Shown here: positions 3,857 to 22,707 of the stretch, in pieces | How positions within the stretch are numbered: position 1 is the first letter of the stretch | Layout: every line of letters starts with the position of its first letter | From: Parcubacteria group bacterium Gr01-1014_13 | Lineage (GTDB): Bacteria; Patescibacteriota; Patescibacteriia; Magasanikbacterales; GWA2-37-8 | DNA length: 64,000 nt | Assembly: GCA_007376295.1 (NCBI GenBank) | Contig: VMGB01000002.1 | Coordinates: 66,844-130,843, forward strand | Reading direction: 5' to 3' | Program-made: the position numbers and the translations under genes | Notes under the pieces: generated by a model | The model's database searches: none | Told to the model about the DNA's origin: nothing | The model's input: only the letters and a program-made list of their open reading frames with translations

Positions 3857-4933
3857 CTATTCTTCTGTTGGCGGTGGCACTTCATCCTCAGCTGATTCTT
3901 CTTCCGGATCTTCGCCTCTTTCCACCACTTCCCAAATTGCTTTGGTAATTGCTTTTATAGTTTTTGGATTATCTTTTAGGAATTTCTTGGCTGTTTCTCT
4001 GCCCACACCAAGTTTTTCTTCGCCATAGGAATAGGAATTGCCTGATTTGTTAATTACTTTGTAGAGAACACCATTATCAAGCGTGTCTCCAGAAACAGAG
4101 ATACCTTCGTTGTACATAATATCAAATTCACAAGTGCGAAAAGGTGCGGCTACTTTGTTTTTTACAACTTTGGCTTTTACACGGTTGCCAATAATTTTAT
4201 CACCTTGTTTAATTTGTGCCGCGCGGCGGACTTCAATTCTTACTGAAGAATAAAATTTCAAGGCTGTACCGCCAGTGGTAGTTTCTGGATTCCCAAAAAC
4301 GATACCGATTTTCATTCTGATTTGGTTGATGAAGATAACTACTGTTTTTGATTTACTAATGATACCTGTTAATTTGCGTAGAGCTTGACTCATCAGTCTG
4401 GCTTGAAGACCCATATGCGAATCACCCATGTCACCTTCAATTTCGGCTTTTGGTACAAGAGCAGCCACTGAGTCTACCACAATTACATCCACTGCGTTGG
4501 AACGAACCAATGTTTCCACTATTTCCAGAGCTTGTTCGCCGGTATCTGGTTGAGAAATTAATAATTCGTCTACTTTTACACCAATTTTTTTGGCATAGTC
4601 TGGATCTAAAGCATGTTCGGCATCCACAAAGGCAGCGATACCACCAAGTTTTTGTACTTCACAAACAATGTGTTGGGCTAGAGTGGTTTTACCACTGGCT
4701 TCTGGGCCGTAAATCTCTATTACGCGGCCGCGCGGTACTCCGCCTACGCCCAAAGCAACATCAAGCGACAAACAACCGGTAGGAACAGCATCAACCTGCA
4801 TTTTTTTTGCTTCCCCAAACTTCATTATAGCTCCGTCTCCGAATCTGCTTTTAATCTGTTCTATCGCGCTTTCCGCGGCTTTCAATTTCTCCTTTACCTC
4901 CTCCGAAATTTGTTTGGGCATAATATGTTGCAA
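3857..4933 (-). CDS. recA: Recombinase RecA
   Basis: 358 aa; Walker [10 protein letters not shown]; classic RecA core ([30 protein letters not shown]...IFINQIR). Confidence 0.97.
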
Positions 4934-5027
4934 CGCTTTATCAGGCGAAAGATGCTTGCAAGACTATTTTTTTAGTCTTCCCTCCAAGCATTGTTGCTTC
5001 TTTGTCTCTTTAAGCTTTGATTAAAAT

Positions 5028-5729
5028 TTAAAAATTAGTTTTTATTTGTTCTACAGAAACGGATCCGAATTTTACAATCACGTGTCTGGTGATAGTAGTG
5101 ATTTTTCCATGCTTTTTTATTGCAGATATAGTAATAGTATTTACTCCGTTTGACAAGTCCACTGGAATTTCAAACTTTCCTTTGTCGTTAGGCATGATGT
5201 CTTTACCATTTACAGTGAGACGCACTTCTTTTTCGGTTTCACCTTGTACTAGTGTCACCAATTTGCTGGAAATGTATCCGTCAGCCGGGGTAAAGACGGC
5301 CAATTTTGGCGGTTGCAGAATGCCGCTTACTTGCCAACTTAGATAACCAAGAAATCCTATGAGTAAAATTGCTACCGCTAATTTTCTAAAAATATTTGAT
5401 AGGGAGTTTAGCGCCCATAGTTTGTGAGCATGGCGTGGATGGCTTTGTGCTTCATTTACAAGGTCTGCTTCTTGGGAAAATTGATAGAGAAAACTGGCGG
5501 GATTTAGATTTAATGCTTCGGCATATTCTCGGATATATGCCAAACGATGGGCTTTGGCTTGAGGAAGTTCTTTGAAACGGCCAAGTTCAATAGATTCTAA
5601 ATACTTGTTTGGTATTCTAGTTTTTTTACTAAGATCATCCAAACTCAGCCGTTGTTCTTCGCGCGCTTTTTTTAGGCGTTCGCCCACTCTTCGCGCAGGT
5701 TCTAAATTTTTTAGGCAAAAAACAGCCAT
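5028..5729 (-). CDS. XRE-type helix-turn-helix protein, RodZ-like (HTH, TM segment, C-terminal beta domain)
   Basis: N-terminal HTH (GERLKKAREEQRLSLDDLSKKTRIPNKYLESIE), central TM helix, extracytoplasmic C-terminal domain. Confidence 0.55.
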   Translation of the reverse strand: MAVFCLKNLEPARRVGERLKKAREEQRLSLDDLSKKTRIPNKYLESIELGRFKELPQAKAHRLAYIREYAEALNLNPASFLYQFSQEADLVNEAQSHPRHAHKLWALNSLSNIFRKLAVAILLIGFLGYLSWQVSGILQPPKLAVFTPADGYISSKLVTLVQGETEKEVRLTVNGKDIMPNDKGKFEIPVDLSNGVNTITISAIKKHGKITTITRHVIVKFGSVSVEQIKTNF

Positions 5730-5732
5730 ACT

Positions 5733-8057
5733 TTATTCTTTATTTTGCTCTTCGGTTGGTTCCTCAAAAACTGGTGCGCCACCCGCATCCATACTTTGTT
5801 CGTCTTCGGGAATTTCATCCGGTTCAGTTGGGCGCATGTGTTGACCAAGCGGATTGATATGTTCGGTAAATAGTTCGCGCGGTTTGGCGCCATCAGCTGG
5901 TCCTACTATACCAGCTTCTTCCATTTCGTCCAACAATCTGGCGGCGCGGGCATAGCCAACTTTCATGCGGCGTTGTAAAAGGGAAGCGCTAGCTTTTCCA
6001 GATTCCATTACTATCTTCTTGGCTTCATCAAACAGAGGATCATTGTCGCTGTTGGCTCCGCCAAACATGTTTACAGTTCCACCACCACCGCTATTATTTC
6101 TCGACACGATAGATTCATCATAGACTGGCGGTTCGTCACCTTTCAAATGATCTATTACTCGTTTCATTTCTTCTTCGGAAACAAATGCGCCTTGCAGACG
6201 TTTTGGTTTGGACATTTCGGCGCTTAAAAATAACATATCACCGCGGCCTAATAATTTTTCTGCGCCTGAAGTATCTAAAATTGTGCGTGAATCAATTAAA
6301 GATGGTACAGAAAAGGCGATACGAGCCGGAATGTTGGCTTTCATCAGACCGGTAATTACTTCCATGCTTGGTCGTTGGGTAGCAACAATTAAATGTATAC
6401 CGACAGCACGGGCCATTTGTGCCAGACGAATAATACCGGCTTCAACTTCGCTCGCTGCCATAGCCATTAGGTCGGCTAATTCATCGATGACAAATACTAT
6501 ATATGGAAGAGGTTCAGCTGCGGATTTATTATATGAACCAATATCTCTTTTGCCAGCATCTGCTAAAAGAGTAAAACGGCGGTCCATTTCGCCGATTGTC
6601 CATTTCAATGCGTTTACAGTTTTAGCCGCATCAGTAATTACCGGAGTAAGTAAATGGGGTATGCCATTGTACATAGTAAGTTCCACGCGTTTTGGATCAA
6701 CCATTATCATGCGCAATGTTTCGGCTGTATTTTGGTAGAGCAAACTTAATAAAACTGTATTTATACAAACTGTTTTACCAGAATTGGTAGCGCCGGCGAT
6801 AAGTAAGTGTGGCATTTTTGGTAAATCGGCAAACCAAACTTTTCCAGCCACATCTTTGCCCAAGGCGATCATCATGTTGTGGTTGTCGCTATTTTTAAAC
6901 TCAGGACTCTCGAGTAATTCGCGCAAAGTAACCATGGCCACTTTTTGGTTTGGTACTTCGATACCAACCAAAGATTGGCCGGGGATTGGCGCTTCTATGC
7001 GTATGGGGTGAGCGGCTAGAGCCAAAGCCAAATCATTGCCCAGATTGGTAATGCGAGTAAGTTTTACACCTTTGGCAGGTTTGAGAGAGTATTGGGTAAC
7101 AGTTGGGCCGACACGAACTTCGCCCATATCTACTTCAATGCCAAAATTATGCAAAGTATCGCGAATAACTTCGGCGTTGCTTTTTATATCACCGGAAGTT
7201 GGTTTACTTTTGGAGGTGAATAATAAATCGATTGGCGGCAAGTCGCGGATAATTGGTTTGGGTATACCTCTTTCTTTTGGTTCTTCATTCATTTCTTCCA
7301 CAACAGTTTCTTCAGAGTCCGGTTCTTCGTGATTTTTGTTTTCTTCATTGGCGCTCAAAGTTCTTTTTTGGAAAACTCGCTGTTCTTCTTCTGTTTCAGC
7401 TTCACCATCTTCATCAGTCGTAACATCTGTGGTGCCCGTCTCGTAATCTCCTTTTATTTTAAACTCAACTTTTTCATTTTTAAATGAAGCAAAAAAAGCG
7501 ACAATTTTTTGTCCGAACCAACCTAACAGTAAAAAGAATTTTTTGTGCAGGTCGACAATTTGAGCCAAAGAAGTGTTGAAGATAAATATGACTCCGGCCA
7601 GCAGTAATCCGCAGAGCAACATAAATGCGCCCCAGTAACCAATATATGTATATAGGAACCAAGCGGGCAAAAAACCAACCAAACCGCCGCCATATCCTTG
7701 GGTAGCTAGGTCGTACATCTGTTCAACCGGTTTTTGGAGATGGATTAGGCCATTAAAGCTGAGGATAAATAAAATAGAGCCAATAAAATGAGTTGGCCGG
7801 TATTCATATTCCATGTCTTTTACCATGAGAATAGCAACCAGAATCAAAACGATCGGAACAACATAGCGTACTTGCCCAAAAGTAATGGCCAAAAGAGAGT
7901 CAATAAATTGACCGGCTACTCCGGCTAGAGAAAAAAAACTGAGAGCGGATAATCCGCCTAAAATAAACAAAAATAAAGCCAAAAGTCCTCGGCTGAGGTC
8001 TGGATTTAAATTTACTCTCTCAGAGAGTGTTAATTTTCGTTGTCTGTGTCTTCCCAT
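5733..8057 (-). CDS. ftsK: DNA translocase FtsK/SpoIIIE
   Basis: 774 aa; N-terminal multi-TM domain, acidic linker, motor domain with Walker A GATNSGKT, C-terminal gamma (winged-helix) domain. Confidence 0.95.
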   Translation of the reverse strand: MGRHRQRKLTLSERVNLNPDLSRGLLALFLFILGGLSALSFFSLAGVAGQFIDSLLAITFGQVRYVVPIVLILVAILMVKDMEYEYRPTHFIGSILFILSFNGLIHLQKPVEQMYDLATQGYGGGLVGFLPAWFLYTYIGYWGAFMLLCGLLLAGVIFIFNTSLAQIVDLHKKFFLLLGWFGQKIVAFFASFKNEKVEFKIKGDYETGTTDVTTDEDGEAETEEEQRVFQKRTLSANEENKNHEEPDSEETVVEEMNEEPKERGIPKPIIRDLPPIDLLFTSKSKPTSGDIKSNAEVIRDTLHNFGIEVDMGEVRVGPTVTQYSLKPAKGVKLTRITNLGNDLALALAAHPIRIEAPIPGQSLVGIEVPNQKVAMVTLRELLESPEFKNSDNHNMMIALGKDVAGKVWFADLPKMPHLLIAGATNSGKTVCINTVLLSLLYQNTAETLRMIMVDPKRVELTMYNGIPHLLTPVITDAAKTVNALKWTIGEMDRRFTLLADAGKRDIGSYNKSAAEPLPYIVFVIDELADLMAMAASEVEAGIIRLAQMARAVGIHLIVATQRPSMEVITGLMKANIPARIAFSVPSLIDSRTILDTSGAEKLLGRGDMLFLSAEMSKPKRLQGAFVSEEEMKRVIDHLKGDEPPVYDESIVSRNNSGGGGTVNMFGGANSDNDPLFDEAKKIVMESGKASASLLQRRMKVGYARAARLLDEMEEAGIVGPADGAKPRELFTEHINPLGQHMRPTEPDEIPEDEQSMDAGGAPVFEEPTEEQNKE

Positions 8058-14367: not shown

Positions 14368-17300
14368 ATGACCGATAATCTTTACCCAGCGGACTTCGAT
14401 GCCATTCGCCTCAAACTAGCTTCTCCGGAAGTTGTTAAAGGATGGTCTTATGGTGAAGTCCATAAACCAGAAACAATTAATTACCGCACCCAAAAACCGG
14501 AAAAAGGTGGTTTGTTTGCCGAAGAAATTTTTGGCCCAACAAAAGATTGGGAATGTTATTGTGGAAAATATAAAAAAATCCGCTACAAAGGAATCGTCTG
14601 TGATAAATGTTCCGTAGAAGTTACTCACTCTTCCGTTCGCCGCGAACGCATGGGCCACATTGAACTTTCTGCTCCAGTAGCCCATATTTGGTTCTTGCGC
14701 TCTGTGCCTTCTAAGATTGGTTTGGTGTTGGATCTATCCGCCCAAGCTTTAGAAAAAGTTGTTTACTTTGCTTCTTTTGTTATTACACACGTAAATGAAG
14801 AAGAAAAGAAAAAAACAAGCGACATGTTGCGCCAGGAATACAAGACTAAGAAAAAACAGATTGAAAAAGAAGCGAGTGATAAAGTAAAAAGCGCTAATGA
14901 TAAAAAATTGGGCGCTGAAATGTTGGAAAAAATCCAAGAAGATGCAGAAAGAAAATATAAATCCCTGGATGAAGATTTCCAACAGGCTGATAAAGAATTA
15001 AAAGAACTGCAAGTGATGAAGATTGTTTCTGAAAATAAATATCAGGAATTATCTTTGCGTTACGGTCATTTATTCGAAGCCGCTATTGGTGCCGATGGTA
15101 TCAGAAATCTTTTGGCCAGAATTAATTTGGATGAAACTATTAAAAAATTAGCCGAAGAACAACCAAAAGTTAAAGGTTCAAAATTAGAACGCATTATCCG
15201 CCGCAAAAAAGTTTTGAAGAGTTTTTTCTCAAACAAAATTCGTCCGGAATGGATGGTTCTTCAATCAATTCCAGTTATTCCTCCTGATTTACGCCCAATG
15301 GTAGCTTTGGATGGCGGACGTTTTGCTACTTCAGATTTAAATGATTTATACAGACGCGTTATTAACCGCAACAATCGTTTGCGCCGGCTTTTGGAATTAG
15401 ATGCTCCAGAAGTTATCTGCCGCAATGAAAAACGCATGTTGCAAGAAGCTGTTGATGCTTTAATTGACAACAACGCTCGTCATGCCAAGACTGTGACCGC
15501 TTCTACTGGTCAAAAGAGACAATTACGCTCTTTGGCTGATATTTTGAAAGGTAAACAGGGTCGTTTCCGTCAGAATTTGCTTGGTAAACGCGTGGACTAC
15601 TCAGGTCGTTCCGTAATTGTGGTTGGTCCAAACTTAAATATTGATGAATGTGGTCTGCCAAAGAGAATGGCTTTGGAATTATTCAAACCATTTATCATGA
15701 GTGAAGTTATCAAGCGTGAATTGGCTCACAATGTCCGCAGTGCTTCTAGATATATAGAAGCGGAACATGATGAAGTTTGGGATATTTTGGAAGAATTGAC
15801 CAAGAAAACCCGCGTATTACTTAACCGCGCTCCGACTTTGCACCGTTTAGGTATCCAAGCTTTTCACCCCCGCTTAATTGAAGGTAAAGCTATCCAGTTG
15901 CACCCACTCGTTTGTACCGCTTTCAACGCCGACTTCGACGGTGACCAGATGGCTGTTCACTTACCTCTTACTGCTGAAGCACGTTTTGAAGCTGACACCT
16001 TGATGGCCGCTGAAAAAAATATTTTAAAGCCTGCTACTGGCAGTCCGGTAATTACTCCTAAGCAAGATATTGCTTTGGGCTGTTACTACTTAACCAGATA
16101 CGAAACAGGTGATACTGCTGAAGTAAAGAAATATTTTAGTTCCGAGAAAGAAGCTATCCTGGCTTATCGTTCTCGTGTTATAACTTTGCAAGACAGAATT
16201 AAGGTTCGCTTCCAAGATATGAGCCGATTTGAAGAAGGCACAAAACCATTAATCGAAACTTCTGTAGGCAGAATATTCTTTAACAGAATTTTGCCGCCAC
16301 AACTTCCATATATTAATGAAACTATTACTGCCAAAAAATCAGGCCAGATTATCCGTATGTGTTTGGAGTTAACAAATGATGACCAGCAACAAGTTGCATT
16401 CTTTTTGGATGAATTAAAGAACTTGGGTTATCGTTATGTTACCAAATCTGGATATTCTCTGGGCATGGACGACTTCCCAACTATCGTAGAAAAGCCGGGA
16501 ATGTTAGCCGAGTCCGACAAAATGGTGGCACAAGTAGAAGAACAATACCAAGAAGGTTTGCTTACCAATTCCGAACGTCACGTTAAGATTTTGGAAATTT
16601 GGGCTGATACCAAAGAAAGAATCGTTGCCAATAACCAAAAAGCTTTGCGCAAAGACGGTCCGGTATTCGCGATGATTGATTCTGGTGCCCGCGGAAGCTG
16701 GGGCCAGTTGGGTCAGGTTATCGGTATGAAAGGTTTGGTGGCCTCACCATCTGGTGACACCATCGAATTGCCGGTAAAAGGCAACTTTAAAGAAGGTTTC
16801 GATGTACTTGAATTCTTTATCTCTTCTCACGGTACTAGAAAAGGTTTGACTGATACGGCTTTACGTACTGCTAACGCTGGTTACTTAACCCGCCGTTTAG
16901 TAGATGTAGCGCAAGATGTGATTGTATTTGAAGATGATTGTGGCGATACTTCAGGAGAAGTATTTACTGCCCACCAATCTCAAGAAATGGGTGAAAAACT
17001 ATCTGACCGTATTTGGAGCCGCTATTCTTTAGAGACTATAAAAGTTGGTAATAAAGTTATTATCAAAGAAGGAGAAATCATTGACGACAAGACTGCTCGC
17101 TACATTGATGAACACAAGATTGATTCAGTTAAAGTACGCAGTGTTCTGCAATGCAGAATGCAAAAAGGAATTTGCCGCAAATGTTATGGCTTTGATTTGT
17201 CCAAGAATAAACCAGTAGAATTTGGTGTAGCCGTAGGTATTATCTCTGCTCAATCCATCGGTGAGCCTGGTACTCAGCTAACCATGAGAACCTTCCATAC

Positions 17301-18246
17301 TGGTGGTGTGGCAGGTGGTGCCGATATTACCCAAGGTTTGCCTCGTGTAGATGAATTGTTTGAAGCTCGTGCTCCAAAGAAACAAGCTATGTTGGCAGAA
17401 GTATCTGGTGAAATTGAAATTGAAAAAGCTGACGGTAAAATTATTACTTCTCCAAGCGGCAAGAAAATTTTTGAAGGCCGACGCGGACAAGAAATTATCC
17501 ATATTCATTTCTCCGGTATGGATGAAATGAAGATAAAGAGTAAGTCCGAAGACGAAGTGATGGTAAAAGACGGTGGAACTGTAAAACAAGACGAAGTAAT
17601 TTTGGTACGCGGATCATCTGGTGAAGAAGTAGTTGCCAAATATGCCGGCAATATCAAAATTGAAAAGAATACTATTACCCTCACTTACGAAGGCCCTCAT
17701 GTACGTGAGTACATTGTACCGTTAGGTTACAAAGTCTTGGTAAAGACAGGTGACAAGGTAGAAAAAGGTGATATTCTTACAGATGGCAGTATCAATCCGC
17801 ACCAATTGTTTGAACTAAAAGGCAAAGAAGCTGTACAGAGATATATTTTGCAAGAAGTACAGGGAATTTACTCTTCTCAAGGTCAGAAAGTGAACGACAA
17901 GCACGTAGAATTGGTAATTCGTCAGATGTTTAGTCGTGTTTACGTAGAAGACGCCGGCGACACCGATCTATTGCCAGGTGAAGTGGTAGAAAAATCACAA
18001 CTTGATTTTGCTAACCGCCAAGCAAAGAAAGATGGTGGCAAGAATGCTGTCGGCAGAGAATTGTTCTTGGGTATCAGTAAGATTGCGCTTTCCACCCAGA
18101 GCTTCTTATCGGCCGCATCGTTTCAAGAAACCGCCAGAGTGTTGATCAATACTGCCATCACCGGCAAGATCGACCACTTGGAAGGTTTGAAAGAAAATGT
18201 GATTATCGGACGTTTGATTCCGGCTGGAACTGGGTTTAAACAGTAA
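14368..18246 (+). CDS. rpoC: DNA-directed RNA polymerase subunit beta'
   Basis: 1292 aa; zinc-finger CYCGKYKK...CDKC, catalytic NADFDGD motif, trigger-loop and clamp regions. Confidence 0.98.
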   Translation: MTDNLYPADFDAIRLKLASPEVVKGWSYGEVHKPETINYRTQKPEKGGLFAEEIFGPTKDWECYCGKYKKIRYKGIVCDKCSVEVTHSSVRRERMGHIELSAPVAHIWFLRSVPSKIGLVLDLSAQALEKVVYFASFVITHVNEEEKKKTSDMLRQEYKTKKKQIEKEASDKVKSANDKKLGAEMLEKIQEDAERKYKSLDEDFQQADKELKELQVMKIVSENKYQELSLRYGHLFEAAIGADGIRNLLARINLDETIKKLAEEQPKVKGSKLERIIRRKKVLKSFFSNKIRPEWMVLQSIPVIPPDLRPMVALDGGRFATSDLNDLYRRVINRNNRLRRLLELDAPEVICRNEKRMLQEAVDALIDNNARHAKTVTASTGQKRQLRSLADILKGKQGRFRQNLLGKRVDYSGRSVIVVGPNLNIDECGLPKRMALELFKPFIMSEVIKRELAHNVRSASRYIEAEHDEVWDILEELTKKTRVLLNRAPTLHRLGIQAFHPRLIEGKAIQLHPLVCTAFNADFDGDQMAVHLPLTAEARFEADTLMAAEKNILKPATGSPVITPKQDIALGCYYLTRYETGDTAEVKKYFSSEKEAILAYRSRVITLQDRIKVRFQDMSRFEEGTKPLIETSVGRIFFNRILPPQLPYINETITAKKSGQIIRMCLELTNDDQQQVAFFLDELKNLGYRYVTKSGYSLGMDDFPTIVEKPGMLAESDKMVAQVEEQYQEGLLTNSERHVKILEIWADTKERIVANNQKALRKDGPVFAMIDSGARGSWGQLGQVIGMKGLVASPSGDTIELPVKGNFKEGFDVLEFFISSHGTRKGLTDTALRTANAGYLTRRLVDVAQDVIVFEDDCGDTSGEVFTAHQSQEMGEKLSDRIWSRYSLETIKVGNKVIIKEGEIIDDKTARYIDEHKIDSVKVRSVLQCRMQKGICRKCYGFDLSKNKPVEFGVAVGIISAQSIGEPGTQLTMRTFHTGGVAGGADITQGLPRVDELFEARAPKKQAMLAEVSGEIEIEKADGKIITSPSGKKIFEGRRGQEIIHIHFSGMDEMKIKSKSEDEVMVKDGGTVKQDEVILVRGSSGEEVVAKYAGNIKIEKNTITLTYEGPHVREYIVPLGYKVLVKTGDKVEKGDILTDGSINPHQLFELKGKEAVQRYILQEVQGIYSSQGQKVNDKHVELVIRQMFSRVYVEDAGDTDLLPGEVVEKSQLDFANRQAKKDGGKNAVGRELFLGISKIALSTQSFLSAASFQETARVLINTAITGKIDHLEGLKENVIIGRLIPAGTGFKQ

Positions 18247-18251
18247 AAAAC
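18211..18251 (+). repeat. Direct repeat copy 1 (native rpoC 3' end, CGTTTGATTCCGGCTGGAACTGGGTTTAAACAGTAAAAAAC)
   Basis: 39/41 identical to 19226-19266. Encodes RLIPAGTGFKQ* in the rpoC frame. Confidence 0.85.
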
Positions 18252-18267
18252 TATTAAAAAGAAACAA

Positions 18268-18297
18268 AAACACTCCAAATAGGGGTGTTTTTGTTTG
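18268..18297 (+). terminator. rpoC terminator (degenerate homolog of the 19277-19303 hairpin)
   Basis: AACACTCC-AAATA-GGGGTGTT followed by TTTGTTT. Confidence 0.6.
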
Positions 18298-18362
18298 GGT
18301 TGATTTTATTGTAAGTTTGGGATAAGATTTGTGTATGGTTAAATTTTAATTCTTCGTACAAT

Positions 18363-19232
18363 ATGACAATGGAACATGGTTATCCGGGCAGACAACCGGA
18401 AGAAGATAAAACCAGAGAACTATTTGATTCATTAGGTGAGGATTTTAAAGTATGTTGGGACGCCTTAAATATATCACCAGACAAGGAGCAAAAATTTTTT
18501 GAAATATTAAAAAGATTAGAGAATAAAAAACAGGCAGAAAAACCTGTTTATTTGGATTATATAAAAAGATTATTTAAGGAGGAATTTGAAGAGTTTAAGC
18601 CAGATATTAAGCAATCAAACTTAGACTCTACAAAACATCTAGCCGGTTTAGCTGCAAGTTTTATCGAAAGAGTAGAATTTTTTGATAAAATTATTTCTGT
18701 CCCCGACCGTATTACCAACGGAGGCAGATCTGTGGGTGAATTGGAAGTAGCTTTGCGTGAAGCGGATGTTCTTACGGACGGTGAGAGTGAGATTGATATG
18801 ATACGTAGTGAAGATTTTAAAAGTTCAATTTTAAAAAATTCAGAACAGGAAAGAATTAGCTTGGTCAGGGTAATGCCCTTCTACCTTTTTAATGATAGAG
18901 AATATCGTTCATTAGAAGAAGTTAACAAAAAAGCAAAAGAGTTTGGATTGGAGTTATGTCCGCCAGAAGTCGGGCCAATCTATCGTTTGGCGTATCGACG
19001 AGAAGGAGAGTTAAAAAAAGACCAGCAAAATGATGAGGGATTAACTATAGCCATGAAACCCATTGTCTCTTCAAATGGTTTTTTAAAAACTTTTTATTTA
19101 GGATTTAGTGATAACGGACCATTTATTTGTGATGATAATGTTGATAATATAAATCCTGTTGCTACCCTTGTCTTCCGTCTCCGTCCAGAAAAACCTACTT
19201 CAAAATCAGAAGCTACTGAGTCGGTCGTTTGA
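18363..19232 (+). CDS. Hypothetical protein (289 aa) carried on the insert at the rpoC 3' end
   Basis: Long ORF with no recognisable domain. Its last codons lie inside the second copy of the rpoC-end repeat. Confidence 0.5.
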   Translation: MTMEHGYPGRQPEEDKTRELFDSLGEDFKVCWDALNISPDKEQKFFEILKRLENKKQAEKPVYLDYIKRLFKEEFEEFKPDIKQSNLDSTKHLAGLAASFIERVEFFDKIISVPDRITNGGRSVGELEVALREADVLTDGESEIDMIRSEDFKSSILKNSEQERISLVRVMPFYLFNDREYRSLEEVNKKAKEFGLELCPPEVGPIYRLAYRREGELKKDQQNDEGLTIAMKPIVSSNGFLKTFYLGFSDNGPFICDDNVDNINPVATLVFRLRPEKPTSKSEATESVV

Positions 19233-19266
19233 TTCCAGCGGGAACTGGGTTTAAACAGTAAAAAAC
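19226..19266 (+). repeat. Direct repeat copy 2 (duplicate of rpoC 3' end)
   Basis: CGTTTGATTCCAGCGGGAACTGGGTTTAAACAGTAAAAAAC. Both mismatches to copy 1 are synonymous in the rpoC reading frame. Confidence 0.85.
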
Positions 19267-19276
19267 TTCAAACAAA

Positions 19277-19303
19277 AAGACACCCGAACGGGTGTCTTTT
19301 TGT
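19277..19303 (+). terminator. Rho-independent terminator after repeat copy 2
   Basis: AGACACCC-GAAC-GGGTGTCT followed by TTTTGT. Confidence 0.65.
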
Positions 19304-19354
19304 ATTGACAAAAATTATAATTTATTGTATGTTTTCTCCACAAGGAGATTAAGG

Positions 19355-19780
19355 ATGAGCAATCAGACGTTCCCTTCGACAGCTTTAGATAGCGAGCTAA
19401 TACCAAGTGGATGGAAGATAGTGGAGGATGTTGAACCTTCACAACTCGATGGCATGATGATTAAGACTGTATCCTTTCTTTTCGAGGGAGAAGAAAATAT
19501 CCCTGGCGAAGTGATGCTTGAACGCGCTGAGGAAATGAAAGCTAACCTCGGATTTGCAGATGCTAAGTATTTAGCGAACCATCAGGATAAAATTTCGATT
19601 GAATTTCGATACAATTGCCTCGTGTTTAGCGGTACAGTTTTTGAGGACTTGAGGGGTTGTTTACACCTAGCGTACTTAGCTTTTGGTGAGGGTAACCGTT
19701 GGCATTTGCTCTTCGTTCAGATTGACGGCGTCTATTGGACAGATGATTTTCGTCTTCTGTGTTGTAAAGATTTTTCTTAG
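19355..19780 (+). CDS. Hypothetical protein, family A paralog 1 (homolog of 41121-41564)
   Basis: ATG at 19355 lies 6 nt after the RBS AAGGAG. Shares ANLG..DAK.L..HQ.KI and LVF.GT/AYL blocks with the 41.1-kb gene. Confidence 0.55.
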   Translation: MSNQTFPSTALDSELIPSGWKIVEDVEPSQLDGMMIKTVSFLFEGEENIPGEVMLERAEEMKANLGFADAKYLANHQDKISIEFRYNCLVFSGTVFEDLRGCLHLAYLAFGEGNRWHLLFVQIDGVYWTDDFRLLCCKDFS

Positions 19781-19890
19781 ATCCTCGTTCGGAATTCGCT
19801 GTAAAAGTGAATGTTCGGCGAGGCTTTTTTATTTGATTTTAATGTAACTTTCGGTTAAAATTGGTGTATAAATATTAAGTACACTCCTTT

Positions 19891-20607
19891 ATGTCCGGTC
19901 ACTCGAAATGGCATAATATCCAAGGCAGAAAAGGCAAACAAGACGCTATTCGTAGCAGCCAATTCACTAAAATGGCTAAGCTTATTGCCGTCGCAGCCCG
20001 AAGTGGTGGCGATCCGACAATGAACTTTTCTTTGCGTCTTGCTATAGAAAAAGCCAAGGAAGTAGGCATGCCAAAAGACAATATTGAGCGCGCTATAAAA
20101 CGCGGTACCGGCGAGCTTGAAGGCGCCCAAATAGAAGAAGTAGTTTACGAAGGTTATGGCCCTGGTGGAGTAGCCGTACTTGTAAAATGTCTGACAGACA
20201 ACAAAAACCGAACAGTTTCCGATATCAAACACATTTTTTCTATACACGGCGGCTCTATGGCCGGCGCTGGTAGTGTAATGTGGATGTTTGCACAAATGGG
20301 AGTGATTGTCGTAGAAAAAGATAAAATCGAAACAAAGAGAGATGATTTTGATTTAAAAATGATTGAAGCTGGAGCTGAAGATATTAGCGAAGATGGCAAT
20401 TTGGAAATAAAAACAAAAATAGAAAATTTCCAAAAAGTTTTGTCGGCGGTAAAAGAAATGGGTATAGAGCCAACCGAATCCGGTTTGCAATGGGTTGCCA
20501 AAGATAAAGTGTCTGTAAGCGATGAGGTGGGCCAGCAATTAGGAAAATTATTTGAAGAGTTTGATGAGAACGATGATGTAGAAGATTATTTTACTAATGC
20601 CGAGTAA
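19891..20607 (+). CDS. yebC: YebC/PmpR family DNA-binding transcriptional regulator
   Basis: MSGHSKWHNIQ...RGTGELEG...YEGYGPGGVA, a near-canonical YebC sequence. Confidence 0.92.
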   Translation: MSGHSKWHNIQGRKGKQDAIRSSQFTKMAKLIAVAARSGGDPTMNFSLRLAIEKAKEVGMPKDNIERAIKRGTGELEGAQIEEVVYEGYGPGGVAVLVKCLTDNKNRTVSDIKHIFSIHGGSMAGAGSVMWMFAQMGVIVVEKDKIETKRDDFDLKMIEAGAEDISEDGNLEIKTKIENFQKVLSAVKEMGIEPTESGLQWVAKDKVSVSDEVGQQLGKLFEEFDENDDVEDYFTNAE

Positions 20608-21114: not shown

Positions 21115-22707
21115 ATGAAAAAATTATTATTCCGCTCAGCTCTAATCGCAGTACTTGGTTTGGCTTTAACTTCTGGCTCAGCCTCCGTCGTAAATTCTGC
21201 AACATCTGGCGGAAGTATAGGCTATCCGGCATTTAACCCAAATGATCCCGCTGATGCTCCGCTGATGAAGTTTGCCGAAACTTGGGCAAGAAATTGGAAT
21301 TTTGAAGGACACAATGTTAGTCCTAGTTTTAGTTCTGATAGCGGAAATTGGGATTATACGGAAAAAACTTATGAGCCATGGCTTTTTGATCGAGCGTCAG
21401 TTGGATATTATTTATATAAACGCGTAACATCAACTACAGATAAAGCTCGTTGGTACCAACAGTTCTTAACTGATTTTGCATATTATCGAAACCATATAGA
21501 TGCTAATGGATATTTTCTTCCAAAAGTATTAGGAGGCGAGCAGGATACAAAGTATGGTTATGTAACTCCTTTTCTTCTCTATGAAAAAGAAACTGGTGAT
21601 GCACAGTATCGTCCAATTGCGGAAAGGGTCTATAAAACATGGTTAAAAGATTTTAGCAGCACTTACAAACCGCAAGCTAGTTTTTGGACAGAACGTGAAA
21701 TTGCCTTTGCGCTTGAAGCCGCTGTTTCTTGGTACGAATTGACTGGAGATGCGGCCGCACTTACTCGCGCTAACGAACTAATAAGTCAATGGACTGTTAT
21801 GGCCGATGCCGGAAATGGAGTTCCTCTGGTTACAATTGATAAACATGAAGGTGGCGGAGGATCACAACTAGTTACCAGTCCCTGGATGAGTGCCTTTTAT
21901 TTCCAAGCGTCTCGAAGACTTTATTCTCTTACCGGAAACACCGAAATATTACAGCAAGTAATTCGTTATGCTGACTGGATGGAAACATACGGTTATTTTG
22001 ACGGCAGTGTTTTAGATAACGATTATGCCGGAATGAAAGCACCGTATTATCTCGTTGGACCAACAGGCCCATACACTTCAGATACACCAACCGAATCAGA
22101 TTTTAACCATTGTTTGGATGTTGCGGGATTGGTTGGATTTGCTATTGAAGCAAAACAAAAACTTGGTCAATCCACTGCCGCCCTTACCAGTCGCAATTCT
22201 CAGTTGAAAGCTTGCGCTGTATATATGTTAAACGATGCCACTCGATCGACCGCTACTTTGCCAAAATATCGCTTAACACCACCACGTAAATTTAACTGGT
22301 GGATGCGTTCAACGCTTGGAACTGGGTCTGGAGCAACACTTCCATTACCTACTCCAACTCCAACACCGACTCCCATTCCTACTCCAGCACCTGTACCAAC
22401 CCCAATTCCGGTTCCAACACCTGCGCCTACACCTGTCCCTATTCCTGCACCGGTACCGGCACCTGCTCCCGCTCCTAAACCAGCTTCAGGCAAGTTCATA
22501 GTTGGTCAGCGTGTCAAAACCACAGCCAACTTAAATGTTAGAACTTCTGCTAGAATTTCAGGAAGATTATTAGGTAGACAAAAAAGAGGCTCATTGGGCA
22601 GAATAGTATCTGGTCCAATAAAAGCAAATGGGTATACCTGGTGGAAAATAAATTATGATAATGGTGCAGATGGTTATTCTGTAGAAAATTTTCTAGTTAA
22701 AAAATAA
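21115..22707 (+). CDS. Secreted protein: signal peptide, ~380-aa alpha-helical domain, Pro/Thr-rich linker, C-terminal SH3b domain
   Basis: N-terminal signal peptide ([23 protein letters not shown]). PT linker [18 protein letters not shown].... C-terminal SH3_3-like segment ([16 protein letters not shown]...[16 protein letters not shown]). Confidence 0.6.
22340..22480 (+). repeat. Low-complexity Pro/Thr/Ala/Val codon repeat encoding the PT linker
   Basis: Reiterated CCAACTCCAACACCGACTCCCATTCCTACTCCAGCACCTGTACCA.... Also produces a spurious antisense Gly/Ala ORF. Confidence 0.8.

What the first reader, a model, noticed from the sequence alone, without database searches (positions are those of the whole stretch)
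18211..19303. About 1 kb insert at the 3' end of rpoC, bracketed by a 41-bp direct repeat that re-encodes the rpoC C-terminus synonymously
The last 11 codons of rpoC plus the stop and the following A-run (18211-18251) recur at 19226-19266 with only two mismatches. Both mismatches are synonymous in the rpoC frame (RLIPAGTGFKQ* preserved). Each copy is followed by a related terminator hairpin (18268-18297 degenerate; 19277-19303 perfect). Between the copies lies a single 289-aa ORF of unknown function. This layout resembles site-specific insertion of an element into the 3' end of an essential gene, where the element carries a replacement 3' end, as seen for tRNA/tmRNA-targeting islands and some protein-gene targets. 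No integrase is present, so it may be a decayed remnant or a cargo gene captured by duplication.
Basis: seen in the sequence. Interest (0 to 1): 0.65.

Follow-up and report, generated by a model that had tools for sequence, protein, structure and literature searches.

The report
Foreign gene spliced into rpoC's tail
In an uncultured groundwater bacterium, about 1 kb of DNA from a related lineage carrying one surface-lectin-type gene was recombined into the last 50 bases of the essential RNA polymerase gene rpoC, bringing its own copy of the gene's end and pushing the original end downstream; this is a clean but one-off case of ordinary gene gain, not a new mobile element.

Summary
The rpoC tail 18206-18263 recurs at 19221-19278 (58 nt at 86% identity; 47-nt core at 93.6%; 27 nt exact), and all three core differences are synonymous. 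Two further assemblies reproduce it.

The closest relatives (L089, L090-92, L173, L174/175, L009) have an empty site: rpoC, an 84-110 nt spacer, then yebC. None of about 87 relatives has a second rpoC tail.

Copy 2 and its terminator are of the resident type (40/41 to L173's working tail). Copy 1's terminator, promoter and 5'UTR are a diverged homologue (71-80%) of the whole rpoC-yebC spacer, so the tail now in use arrived with the insert.

The cargo ORF289 belongs to a large unnamed C-type-lectin family of DGR variable proteins, but the window holds no template repeat or reverse transcriptase. It has lost its own stop codon and ends at a TGA inside the displaced rpoC tail.

The 64 kb encode no integrase or transposase, but do encode RecA, RuvA and RuvC. 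ORF141 is a separate ORFan insertion.

Best reading: a one-off recombinational import that displaced the resident 3' end. A site-specific element is not supported. Interest is modest.

The parts
14368..18246 (+). rpoC (1292 aa). The body is resident, and the last 50 nt or fewer may be of incoming origin.
   Evidence: ORF and Pfam RNA_pol_Rpb1 domains. It is 91% nt identical to L089, and no diverged tract is visible up to the tail.
18206..18263 (+). Repeat copy 1 (A1): the working rpoC tail (G R L I P A G T G F K Q *) plus an A-rich stretch.
18262..18296 (+). Terminator hairpin 1, of the incoming type (GGGG.GTTTTTGTTT signature shared with L174 and L009).
18300..18336 (+). B1: a yebC-type promoter copy (TTGATT, 17 nt, TAAGAT) now in front of ORF289. 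With the terminator and 5'UTR (18247-18351) it is collinear with the whole rpoC-yebC spacer of relatives at 71-80% identity.
   Evidence: Promoter function is inferred from position and conservation only.
18363..19232 (+). ORF289, the cargo. It has a unique helical N-terminal part and a C-terminal C-type-lectin domain of a DGR variable-protein family (about residues 105-277; the part equivalent to the variable region is about nt 19059-19193).
19194..19220 (+). 27-nt linker of unknown origin. ORF289 reads through it because its own stop codon is missing. The right junction of the insert lies at 19220/19221.
   Evidence: Family members end at ...P(R)K*, whereas ORF289 continues PTSKSEATESVV*.
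19221..19278 (+). Repeat copy 2 (A2): the displaced resident rpoC tail (pseudo-tail 19221-19261, TAA at 19259-19261). It supplies ORF289's TGA stop (19230-19232) in another frame.
   Evidence: It is 40/41 identical to the working rpoC tail of L173.
19272..19303 (+). Terminator hairpin 2, the resident rpoC terminator (41/46 to L090, L173-like). It now terminates the ORF289 transcript.
19305..19333 (+). Promoter-like site B' (TTGACA, 17 nt, TATGTT) in front of ORF141. It contains a 14-mer similar to B1.
   Evidence: (D3).
19355..19780 (+). ORF141, an ORFan and a separate insertion between the resident terminator and the yebC promoter. It is flanked only by an imperfect 13-nt repeat (CTTTTTGTATTGA / CTTTTTTATTTGA).
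19783..19830 (+). Terminator 3 (hairpin 19783-19823 plus U-run) after ORF141.
19833..19869 (+). B2: the resident yebC promoter (36/38 to L089, 35/38 to L090), followed by the orthologous 5'UTR and yebC (19891-20607).

Best explanation
This is a one-off recombinational gene import at a variable spot between two conserved genes, not an integrase-driven element.

The ancestral layout in this Magasanikbacteria lineage is rpoC, terminator, yebC promoter, yebC.

A DNA segment of about 1.0 kb came from a related lineage. There, a DGR-type variable-protein gene sat directly behind the rpoC-yebC spacer, at the position of yebC. This segment became joined into the resident rpoC tail. It comprised that lineage's last ~50 nt of rpoC, its terminator, its yebC-type promoter and 5'UTR, ORF289 without its stop codon, and a 27-nt linker.

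The left join used the near-identical rpoC tail as homology. The genome encodes RecA, RuvA and RuvC. The right join, at 19220/19221 (51 nt before the end of the stop codon), was either the closure point of a circular intermediate (Campbell-type single crossover) or an illegitimate join at the microhomology TCGG (homology-facilitated illegitimate recombination).

Result: the incoming tail now completes rpoC. The resident tail and terminator were displaced 1015 nt downstream as an orphan 3' end, where they provide ORF289's stop codon and terminator. ORF289 is driven by the imported yebC-type promoter.

ORF141 entered separately between the resident terminator and the yebC promoter.

Shown: the repeat, the empty sites, the resident versus foreign assignment of the flanks, the cargo's family, and the absence of recombinase genes in the window. 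Inferred: the recombination pathway, the donor arrangement, and promoter function.
For: 1. Empty sites occur in all the closest relatives except one: L089 (99-nt spacer), L090-92 (109 nt), L173 (103 nt), L174/175 (84 nt) and L009 (110 nt).

2. Copy 2's tail is 40/41 identical to L173's working tail. Its terminator is 41/46 to L090, and B2 is 36/38 to L089. By contrast 18247-18351 aligns collinearly with the entire spacer of L090 (105 nt at 71%), L174 (81 nt at 80%) and L009 (90 nt at 74%).

3. The non-functional copy-2 tail has only about 3 differences in 47 nt, all synonymous (P about 0.017), while the two spacers differ by about 20%. The spacer divergence therefore predates the event, and both tails evolved as working rpoC ends.

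4. No diverged donor tract is visible in rpoC upstream of the repeat: window-private differences stay at 3-5 per 150 nt right to the end. The left exchange is therefore in or next to the repeat.

5. ORF289 lacks the family's stop codon and runs 12 codons into the displaced tail, which looks like an accidental junction.

6. There is no integrase, transposase or RT among ORFs of 150 aa or more in 64 kb, but RecA (3857-4933), RuvA, RuvC, FtsK and UvrD are present.

7. The rpoC-yebC gap is a variable spot: 84 nt to 5.9 kb across relatives with unrelated contents. L088 carries a different two-gene insert and shows rpoC/yebC identity discordance.

8. ORF289 has the lowest GC3 of the long ORFs in the window (25.9% vs 36.6 +/- 5.2).

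9. The same displacement logic is described for orphan 3' ends at Rhs, CDI and T6SS loci (PMC5361080).
Against: - No donor genome or intermediate haplotype was found. ORF289 has no close homologue and ORF141 none at all in 5.8 billion clustered proteins, and the repeat core is absent from JGI metagenomes.
- The resident versus foreign assignment rests on short segments (38-105 nt) and is only moderately significant.
- A 47-nt homology is short for efficient RecA crossover.
- If the event was homology-anchored with the crossover upstream, a donor tract would be expected and was not seen.
- An integrase acting in trans from elsewhere in the genome cannot be excluded, because only 64 kb of a 160-kb contig was visible.
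Confidence: 0.55

Rival explanations
1. Site-specific integration by a tyrosine or serine recombinase. The insert is a decayed or cis-mobilizable (integrase-less) element whose attP carries the rpoC 3' end, and the two repeat copies are attL and attR.
For: Direct repeats of 47-58 nt overlap the 3' end of a conserved gene. The gene is restored by an element-borne tail. Relatives have empty sites. Integrase-less att-flanked derivatives of integrative elements are known (my own knowledge, CIMEs in streptococci).
Against: - No recombinase in the insert or among ORFs of 150 aa or more in the 64-kb window.
- Homology to the host continues about 105 nt past the stop codon through terminator, promoter and UTR, instead of ending at a core.
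- The cargo gene's stop codon was lost at the right junction.
- 0 of about 87 relatives has an rpoC-tail duplication, although the site is often occupied.
- There are no inverted repeats at the ends.
Confidence: 0.2
2. In-situ tandem duplication of the rpoC-tail-plus-spacer segment (slippage or unequal crossing-over), followed by independent gain of ORF289 and ORF141 between the copies and divergence of one copy.
For: The tail-terminator-promoter unit occurs 2-3 times in the same order: A1-B1, A2-B', B2.
Against: The neutral pseudo-tail has diverged only about 6%, all synonymous. The adjacent spacers differ by about 20%. This model also needs extra gene insertions exactly at the duplication joints. 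B1 is unlike the well-conserved promoter of the immediate clade (30-31/38 vs 35-37/38).
Confidence: 0.1
3. Assembly chimera of two co-occurring strains joined through the shared rpoC tail.
For: It is a metagenome-assembled genome, and the two tails look like two natural alleles.
Against: Two further assemblies (ENA contig k139_..., Logan) give the identical join, and L002 spans both copies with 0 mismatches. The exact shared run is only 27 nt, shorter than the k-mer sizes likely used. Copy-2-specific variants lie within 20 nt of unique ORF289 sequence, so single reads must span that junction.
Confidence: 0.05
4. Reverse-transcriptase-mediated event. Because the cargo is a DGR variable-protein gene and the junction lies just after its variable-region equivalent, a DGR RT could have copied the rpoC mRNA 3' end and joined it there.
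For: The right junction is 27 nt or less after the end of the family's variable region. The copied piece includes the rpoC terminator, which would be an mRNA 3' end.
Against: Mismatches between the copies are not adenine-specific (A/T, G/A, T/G). There is no RT or template repeat in the window. Copy 2 continues without a break into resident-type sequence (terminator, then ATTGA), so nothing needs to have been copied.
Confidence: 0.03

Closest known systems
Displacement of resident 3' ends at Rhs / CDI / T6SS effector loci (homology-facilitated illegitimate recombination model; PMC5361080)
   Same: Incoming DNA shares a conserved upstream part with the resident gene and brings a new downstream part. 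The resident 3' end is pushed downstream and kept as an orphan that still carries a piece of the conserved sequence. No integrase is involved.
   Different: Here the gene is the essential housekeeping gene rpoC, and the two 3' ends encode the same peptide. The variable cargo is a separate downstream gene, not a toxin tip. Only one displaced end is present, not an array. No donor tract upstream of the junction could be shown.
Integrative elements inserted in the 3' end of tRNA, tmRNA or protein genes (prophages, ICEs, IMEs) and their integrase-less derivatives
   Same: Direct repeats overlap the 3' end of the target gene. The gene is restored by a tail brought by the insert. Relatives have empty sites.
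   Different: There is no integrase. The arm next to the repeat is a homologue of the host's own spacer. The cargo is a single gene truncated at its stop codon. The event does not recur at this site in relatives.
Gene-gain hotspots flanked by core genes, filled by homologous recombination in the flanks (my own knowledge of comparative genomics of HGT hotspots)
   Same: The rpoC-yebC interval varies from 84 nt to 5.9 kb with unrelated contents between conserved flanks, and L088 is mosaic across it.
   Different: Ordinary flank-to-flank replacement leaves no duplication. Here one end of the exchange fell inside the flank gene's last 50 nt and left a visible duplicate.
Diversity-generating retroelement (DGR) variable proteins with a C-type-lectin fold (Mtd, TvpA)
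   Same: ORF289's C-terminal domain is homologous to a family in which 26 loci show variable/template repeat pairs with adenine-specific mismatches, and 21 loci carry an RT. Fold matches include TvpA and Mtd.
   Different: ORF289 has no template repeat or RT within 64 kb. Its variable-region equivalent has lost the nearly invariant W-L positions. Pfam, NCBIfam and PHROGs do not name the family.

Membership tests
Integrase-mediated integrative element at a gene 3' end | Direct repeats (attL/attR) bracketing the insert and overlapping the target gene's 3' end | tested here: met
   18206-18263 vs 19221-19278; the 47-nt core is 93.6% identical.
Integrase-mediated integrative element at a gene 3' end | Target gene completed by an element-borne 3' end, with the resident end displaced | tested here: met
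   Copy 2 plus its terminator match relatives (40/41 to L173; 41/46 to L090). The flank of copy 1 is only 71-80% identical to any relative.
Integrase-mediated integrative element at a gene 3' end | Tyrosine or serine recombinase gene inside the element next to an att site | tested here: not met
   The insert holds only ORF289. No recombinase domain was found among ORFs of 150 aa or more in the window.
Integrase-mediated integrative element at a gene 3' end | Homology between element and host limited to the core or gene end, with element-specific arms beyond it | tested here: not met
   Collinear homology continues about 105 nt past the stop codon through terminator, promoter and 5'UTR.
Integrase-mediated integrative element at a gene 3' end | Same site used repeatedly in other genomes | tested here: not met
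   0 of 80 species-level relatives and 0 of 7 closer contigs have a second rpoC tail.
Integrase-mediated integrative element at a gene 3' end | Excision to a circle and a restored empty site within the population | not testable with these tools
   No read data were available, and the repeat core is absent from the JGI metagenome contigs.
Homology-anchored displacement (HFIR-type) leaving an orphan 3' end | Conserved sequence shared by incoming and resident DNA on one side | tested here: met
   The rpoC tail is nearly invariant across the clade.
Homology-anchored displacement (HFIR-type) leaving an orphan 3' end | Resident 3' end retained downstream as a non-functional fragment | tested here: met
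   Pseudo-tail 19221-19261 preceded by an in-frame TGA at 19217-19219.
Homology-anchored displacement (HFIR-type) leaving an orphan 3' end | Non-homologous far junction, usually at a few bases of microhomology | tested here: inconclusive
   The junction at 19220/19221 lies next to TCGG, which both partners share. The cargo's stop codon is lost, but the donor sequence is unknown.
Homology-anchored displacement (HFIR-type) leaving an orphan 3' end | Donor-derived tract between the homologous crossover and the duplicated point | tested here: not met
   Window-private differences in rpoC do not rise towards the 3' end. A tract under about 50 nt would escape detection. This favours a crossover inside the repeat, as in a Campbell-type circle.
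DGR variable protein (applies to ORF289) | C-terminal C-type-lectin fold domain | tested here: met
DGR variable protein (applies to ORF289) | Family members carry a 3' variable repeat paired with a template repeat that differs at template adenines, with an RT nearby | tested here: met
   26 variable/template pairs; the template base at mismatches is A in 461 of 508 cases; 21 of 82 loci have an RT.
DGR variable protein (applies to ORF289) | Cognate template repeat and RT for this particular gene | tested here: not met
   No template-like copy of 18900-19232 and no RT in the 64-kb window. The rest of the genome was not visible.
DGR variable/template repeat pair (applies to the rpoC-tail repeat itself) | Mismatches confined to adenines of one copy | tested here: not met
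   The differences are A/T, G/A and T/G.
Transposon with target-site duplication | Short duplication (2-15 bp), terminal inverted repeats, transposase | tested here: not met
   The duplication is 47-58 nt. There are no terminal inverted repeats at 18264 or 19220 and no transposase.

The most novel reading that the evidence does not exclude
The insert is one copy of an integrase-less, homology-guided cassette. In this reading, variable-protein genes in these tiny-genome bacteria travel between lineages attached to a portable rpoC-tail-plus-spacer arm. They excise as circles by recombination between the two tails and re-enter other genomes by RecA crossover in the near-invariant last 50 nt of rpoC. 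The conserved end of an essential gene would then serve as a universal landing pad without any dedicated recombinase.
Probability: 0.08. Interest if true: 0.6.

Novelty: new member of a known kind. Interest (0 to 1): 0.3.

Why it matters
It gives a cleanly resolved example of how an uncultured, small-genome (CPR) bacterium gains a gene. Homologous DNA from a related lineage was spliced into the last 50 bases of an essential gene, leaving the old end behind as a datable scar.

It shows that the rpoC-yebC junction is a variable, recombining spot in Magasanikbacteria. It also shows that a DGR-type lectin gene can be separated from its retroelement and moved on its own.

It links a large, unnamed protein family (about 6,500 clusters at 50% identity) to DGR variable proteins.

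It does not reveal a new kind of mobile element.

Tried and rejected
1. ORF289 and ORF141 as paralogues: no similarity.
2. Pfam, NCBIfam and PHROGs names for ORF289, ORF141 or family members: none. The PDB sequence search found nothing.
3. The exact repeat core in JGI metagenomes, to find near-identical strains: 0 hits.
4. Homologues of ORF141: none but itself.
5. rpoC-tail or yebC-promoter duplications at other occupied sites: none.
6. Gap ORFs of relatives belonging to the ORF289 family: none.
7. A template repeat or RT for ORF289 in the window: none.
8. Bracketing direct repeats as a general trait of the family. L003 looked promising, but the rate is 7/64, five of them from one tandem array, against 6/135 for control genes.
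9. A diverged donor tract inside rpoC: not seen.
10. A donor lineage among all fetched spacers: the best match is only 80% over 81 nt, in L174.
11. L088's 147-aa ORF as a relative of ORF141: no.
12. Rfam families in 17500-20500: only sub-threshold hairpin noise.
13. Literature on insertions at the rpoC 3' end: nothing relevant retrieved.
14. The afdb50 fold library was unavailable.
Full report
**1. What is in the sequence**

rpoC occupies 14368-18246. Its last codons plus the stop and an A-rich stretch (18206-18263) recur at 19221-19278. The match is 58 nt at 86%, with a 47-nt core at 93.6% (local E = 5e-16) and a longest exact run of 27 nt.

The three core differences (GGA/GGT, CCG/CCA, GCT/GCG) are all synonymous in the rpoC frame. 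About 26% of single-base changes in this tail are synonymous, so three out of three has P of about 0.017.

Each copy is followed by a strong hairpin and U-run: 18262-18296 and 19272-19303.

A single ORF (18363-19232, 289 aa) lies between the copies, and its TGA stop is inside copy 2 in a different frame.

Two further assemblies of the organism (Parcubacteria group bacterium Gr01-1014_13) give the same structure. The Logan contig L002 spans both copies with no mismatch. The ENA contig differs only at three rpoB positions.

**2. It is an insertion**

I fetched 80 species-level relatives through the rpoC C-terminus. They are Magasanikbacteria-type Patescibacteria.

- The conserved order is rpoC, a short spacer, yebC, ruvC, spoU.
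- Of the 55 loci where yebC was located, 17 have a gap under 300 nt and 33 have 0.6-5.9 kb of extra DNA.
- The extra genes are unrelated to one another (superoxide dismutase-like, peroxiredoxin-like, large secreted proteins, many singletons). None belongs to ORF289's family.
- Closer relatives found through YebC settle the point. L089 (rpoC 91% nt identity), L090-L092, L173 and L174/L175 all have rpoC followed by yebC after 84-109 nt, as does L009.
- L088 carries a different pair of genes (a 147-aa ORF and a RhuM-family gene) at the same place. It is the only relative whose yebC is more similar to the window than its rpoC is, so this junction has a history of recombination.
- Neither ORF289 nor ORF141 occurs in any relative. 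No relative has a second rpoC tail or a duplicated yebC promoter.

**3. Anatomy of the junctions**

The empty site reads: tail, terminator, promoter (TTGATTTT...TAAAAT), 5'UTR, yebC.

The window reads: A1 tail, terminator 1, promoter copy B1, ORF289, 27-nt linker, A2 tail, terminator 2, a TTGACA-type promoter B', ORF141, terminator 3, promoter B2, 5'UTR, yebC.

- B2 is 36/38 and 35/38 identical to the promoters of L089 and L090, and it continues into the orthologous UTR.
- Terminator 2 is 41/46 to L090 and of the L173 type.
- The A2 tail is 40/41 identical to the working rpoC tail of L173. These are the resident sequences.
- By contrast, 18247-18351 (terminator 1, B1, UTR) aligns collinearly with the whole spacer of L090 (105 nt), L174 (81 nt) and L009 (90 nt), but only at 71-80% identity. 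It shares a GGGG.GTTTTTTGTTT...TTTGGGATAA signature with L174 and L009, which are the more distant lineages.
- The homology ends 11 nt before ORF289's ATG, just as it ends 5 nt before yebC's ATG in L090. In the source of this segment, ORF289 therefore stood where yebC stands.

The orphan A2 tail is under no selection, yet it differs from working tails by only 1-3 synonymous bases, while the two spacers differ by about 20%. The spacer divergence must therefore be older than the event. Both tails evolved as working rpoC ends in separate genomes.

So the tail now in use, with its terminator, promoter and ORF289, came in from a related lineage, and the resident tail and terminator were displaced.

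ORF141 is a separate insertion between the resident terminator and B2. It has only an imperfect 13-nt repeat at its ends and no homologue anywhere.

**4. The cargo**

- ORF289 has no Pfam, NCBIfam or PHROGs match.
- Its C-terminal 170 residues belong to a family with an invariant EFGLELCPPEVGP motif. The family has 6,463 cluster representatives at E of 0.001 or better.
- In L007 the 3' end of a family gene is repeated 489 nt downstream, with mismatches at template adenines and an RT gene beyond it.
- Across 82 family loci, 21 have an RT. Twenty-six have such a repeat pair, and in those the template base at mismatches is A in 461 of 508 cases.
- A family member modelled at pLDDT 86 matches C-type-lectin-fold proteins almost exclusively, including the DGR variable proteins TvpA and Mtd. 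The weaker ORF289 model agrees.
- ORF289 is thus a DGR-type variable protein gene, but the window has neither a template repeat nor an RT for it.
- It also lacks the family's stop codon and reads 12 further codons (PTSKSEATESVV) into the displaced rpoC tail. The right junction is therefore an accidental cut within 27 nt of the gene's natural end.
- Its GC3 (25.9%) is the lowest among long ORFs in the window.

**5. Mechanism**

The window has no integrase, transposase or RT among ORFs of 150 aa or more. It does have RecA, RuvA, RuvC, FtsK and UvrD.

rpoC shows no diverged tract upstream of the repeat, so the left exchange lies in or right next to the 47-nt tail.

Bracketing repeats are not a property of the cargo family: 7/64, five of them from one tandem array, against 6/135 controls.

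The best-supported account is a single recombinational import. One route is a Campbell-type single crossover of a circularised fragment whose homology began 51 nt before the end of the rpoC stop codon. The other is a homology-anchored exchange with an illegitimate far join at TCGG.

The outcome, an incoming conserved end plus cargo with the resident end left behind as an orphan, parallels the displacement model for Rhs, CDI and T6SS loci (PMC5361080). I cannot separate the two routes with the data at hand. The absence of a donor tract leans towards the circle.

**6. Rivals**

- **A site-specific element with its integrase lost or acting in trans.** This explains the repeat, the restored gene and the empty sites. 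It does not explain the 105 nt of host-like spacer beyond the stop codon, the truncated cargo, or the lack of any recurrence.
- **In-situ tandem duplication.** This is contradicted by the mismatch between tail divergence and spacer divergence.
- **A strain chimera.** This is contradicted by three concordant assemblies and a shared run of only 27 nt.
- **An RT-mediated join.** This is contradicted by the mismatch pattern and by the unbroken continuity of copy 2 with resident sequence.

**7. Verdict**

It is a new, well-resolved instance of a known process, namely gene gain by recombination at a variable spot with a displaced 3' end. Interest is modest (0.3).

The most novel reading still open is a homology-guided, recombinase-free cassette that uses the rpoC tail as a landing pad. 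It has low probability because no second instance was found.

Noticed in passing
window 19355-19780 (flanks 19290-19310 and 19818-19838): ORF141 is an ORFan: its only hit among 5.8 billion clustered proteins is itself. It has a strong Shine-Dalgarno sequence (AAGGAG), its own TTGACA-type promoter and its own terminator. It is inserted between the resident rpoC terminator and the yebC promoter, with only an imperfect 13-nt repeat at the ends.
   Followed up: partly
L008-L092, L173-L175: interval between rpoC and yebC: The rpoC-yebC interval is a variable spot across Magasanikbacteria. It ranges from 84 nt to 5.9 kb and holds unrelated genes (SOD-like, peroxiredoxin-like, paired ~600-aa secreted proteins, aquaporin-like, RhuM, many singletons).
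   Followed up: partly
window 21115-22707; compare L009 8432-8446, L090 9297-12500, L088 9678-10052: The ruvC-spoU junction is also variable. The window has a 530-aa protein (weak GH127-like match, Pro/Thr-rich linker, SH3-like end). L009 and L010 have nothing there, L090 has a 1067-aa ORF and L088 has a PDDEXK_3 gene.
   Followed up: no
L008 5036-5729 and L010 6769-6871: Two close relatives (rpoC C-terminus 94% aa identity) lack yebC altogether, so rpoC is followed by ruvC. L008 has about 0.7 kb of unrelated DNA with small ORFs in between.
   Followed up: no
L088 (whole locus): L088 is mosaic. Its yebC is 88.6% nt identical to the window's but its rpoC only 84.3%, the reverse of every other relative. 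A B-type promoter sits between its two inserted genes, and the RhuM gene ends 11 nt before yebC's ATG.
   Followed up: partly
L140 285-4627: A tandem array of five paralogous family (C-type-lectin) genes separated by 150-230-nt repeats at 89-98% identity.
   Followed up: no
L003 1641-1682 and 2782-2823 (same locus as L120): A family gene is flanked by a 42-nt promoter-like direct repeat (81% identity), with a weaker family paralogue directly upstream. This resembles the B1/B2 situation, but the pattern did not generalise.
   Followed up: yes
L007 about 4800-5774: The DGR reverse-transcriptase reading frame is interrupted by one in-frame stop (…HHAVY*VLYPYF…). This could be a pseudogene, a sequencing error or recoding.
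   Followed up: no
protein family of ORF289 (P0002-P0166): A very large DGR variable-protein family (6,463 representatives at 50% identity) with an invariant EFGLELCPPEVGP motif has no Pfam, NCBIfam or PHROGs model. Many members are 600-730 aa with the lectin domain at the C-terminus, and some have two tandem domains.
   Followed up: partly
window 14222, 14225, 14242 (3' end of rpoB): The only three differences between the window and the ENA contig L001 over 20.9 kb cluster within 21 nt at the end of rpoB. This suggests local strain variation or a small recombination patch.
   Followed up: no
record titles of L008, L009, L011-L015 and others: Many public records whose rpoC is clearly Patescibacteria/Magasanikbacteria-like are titled 'uncultured Gammaproteobacteria bacterium' or 'Candidatus Udaeobacter sp.'. 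These are probably mislabelled bins.
   Followed up: no
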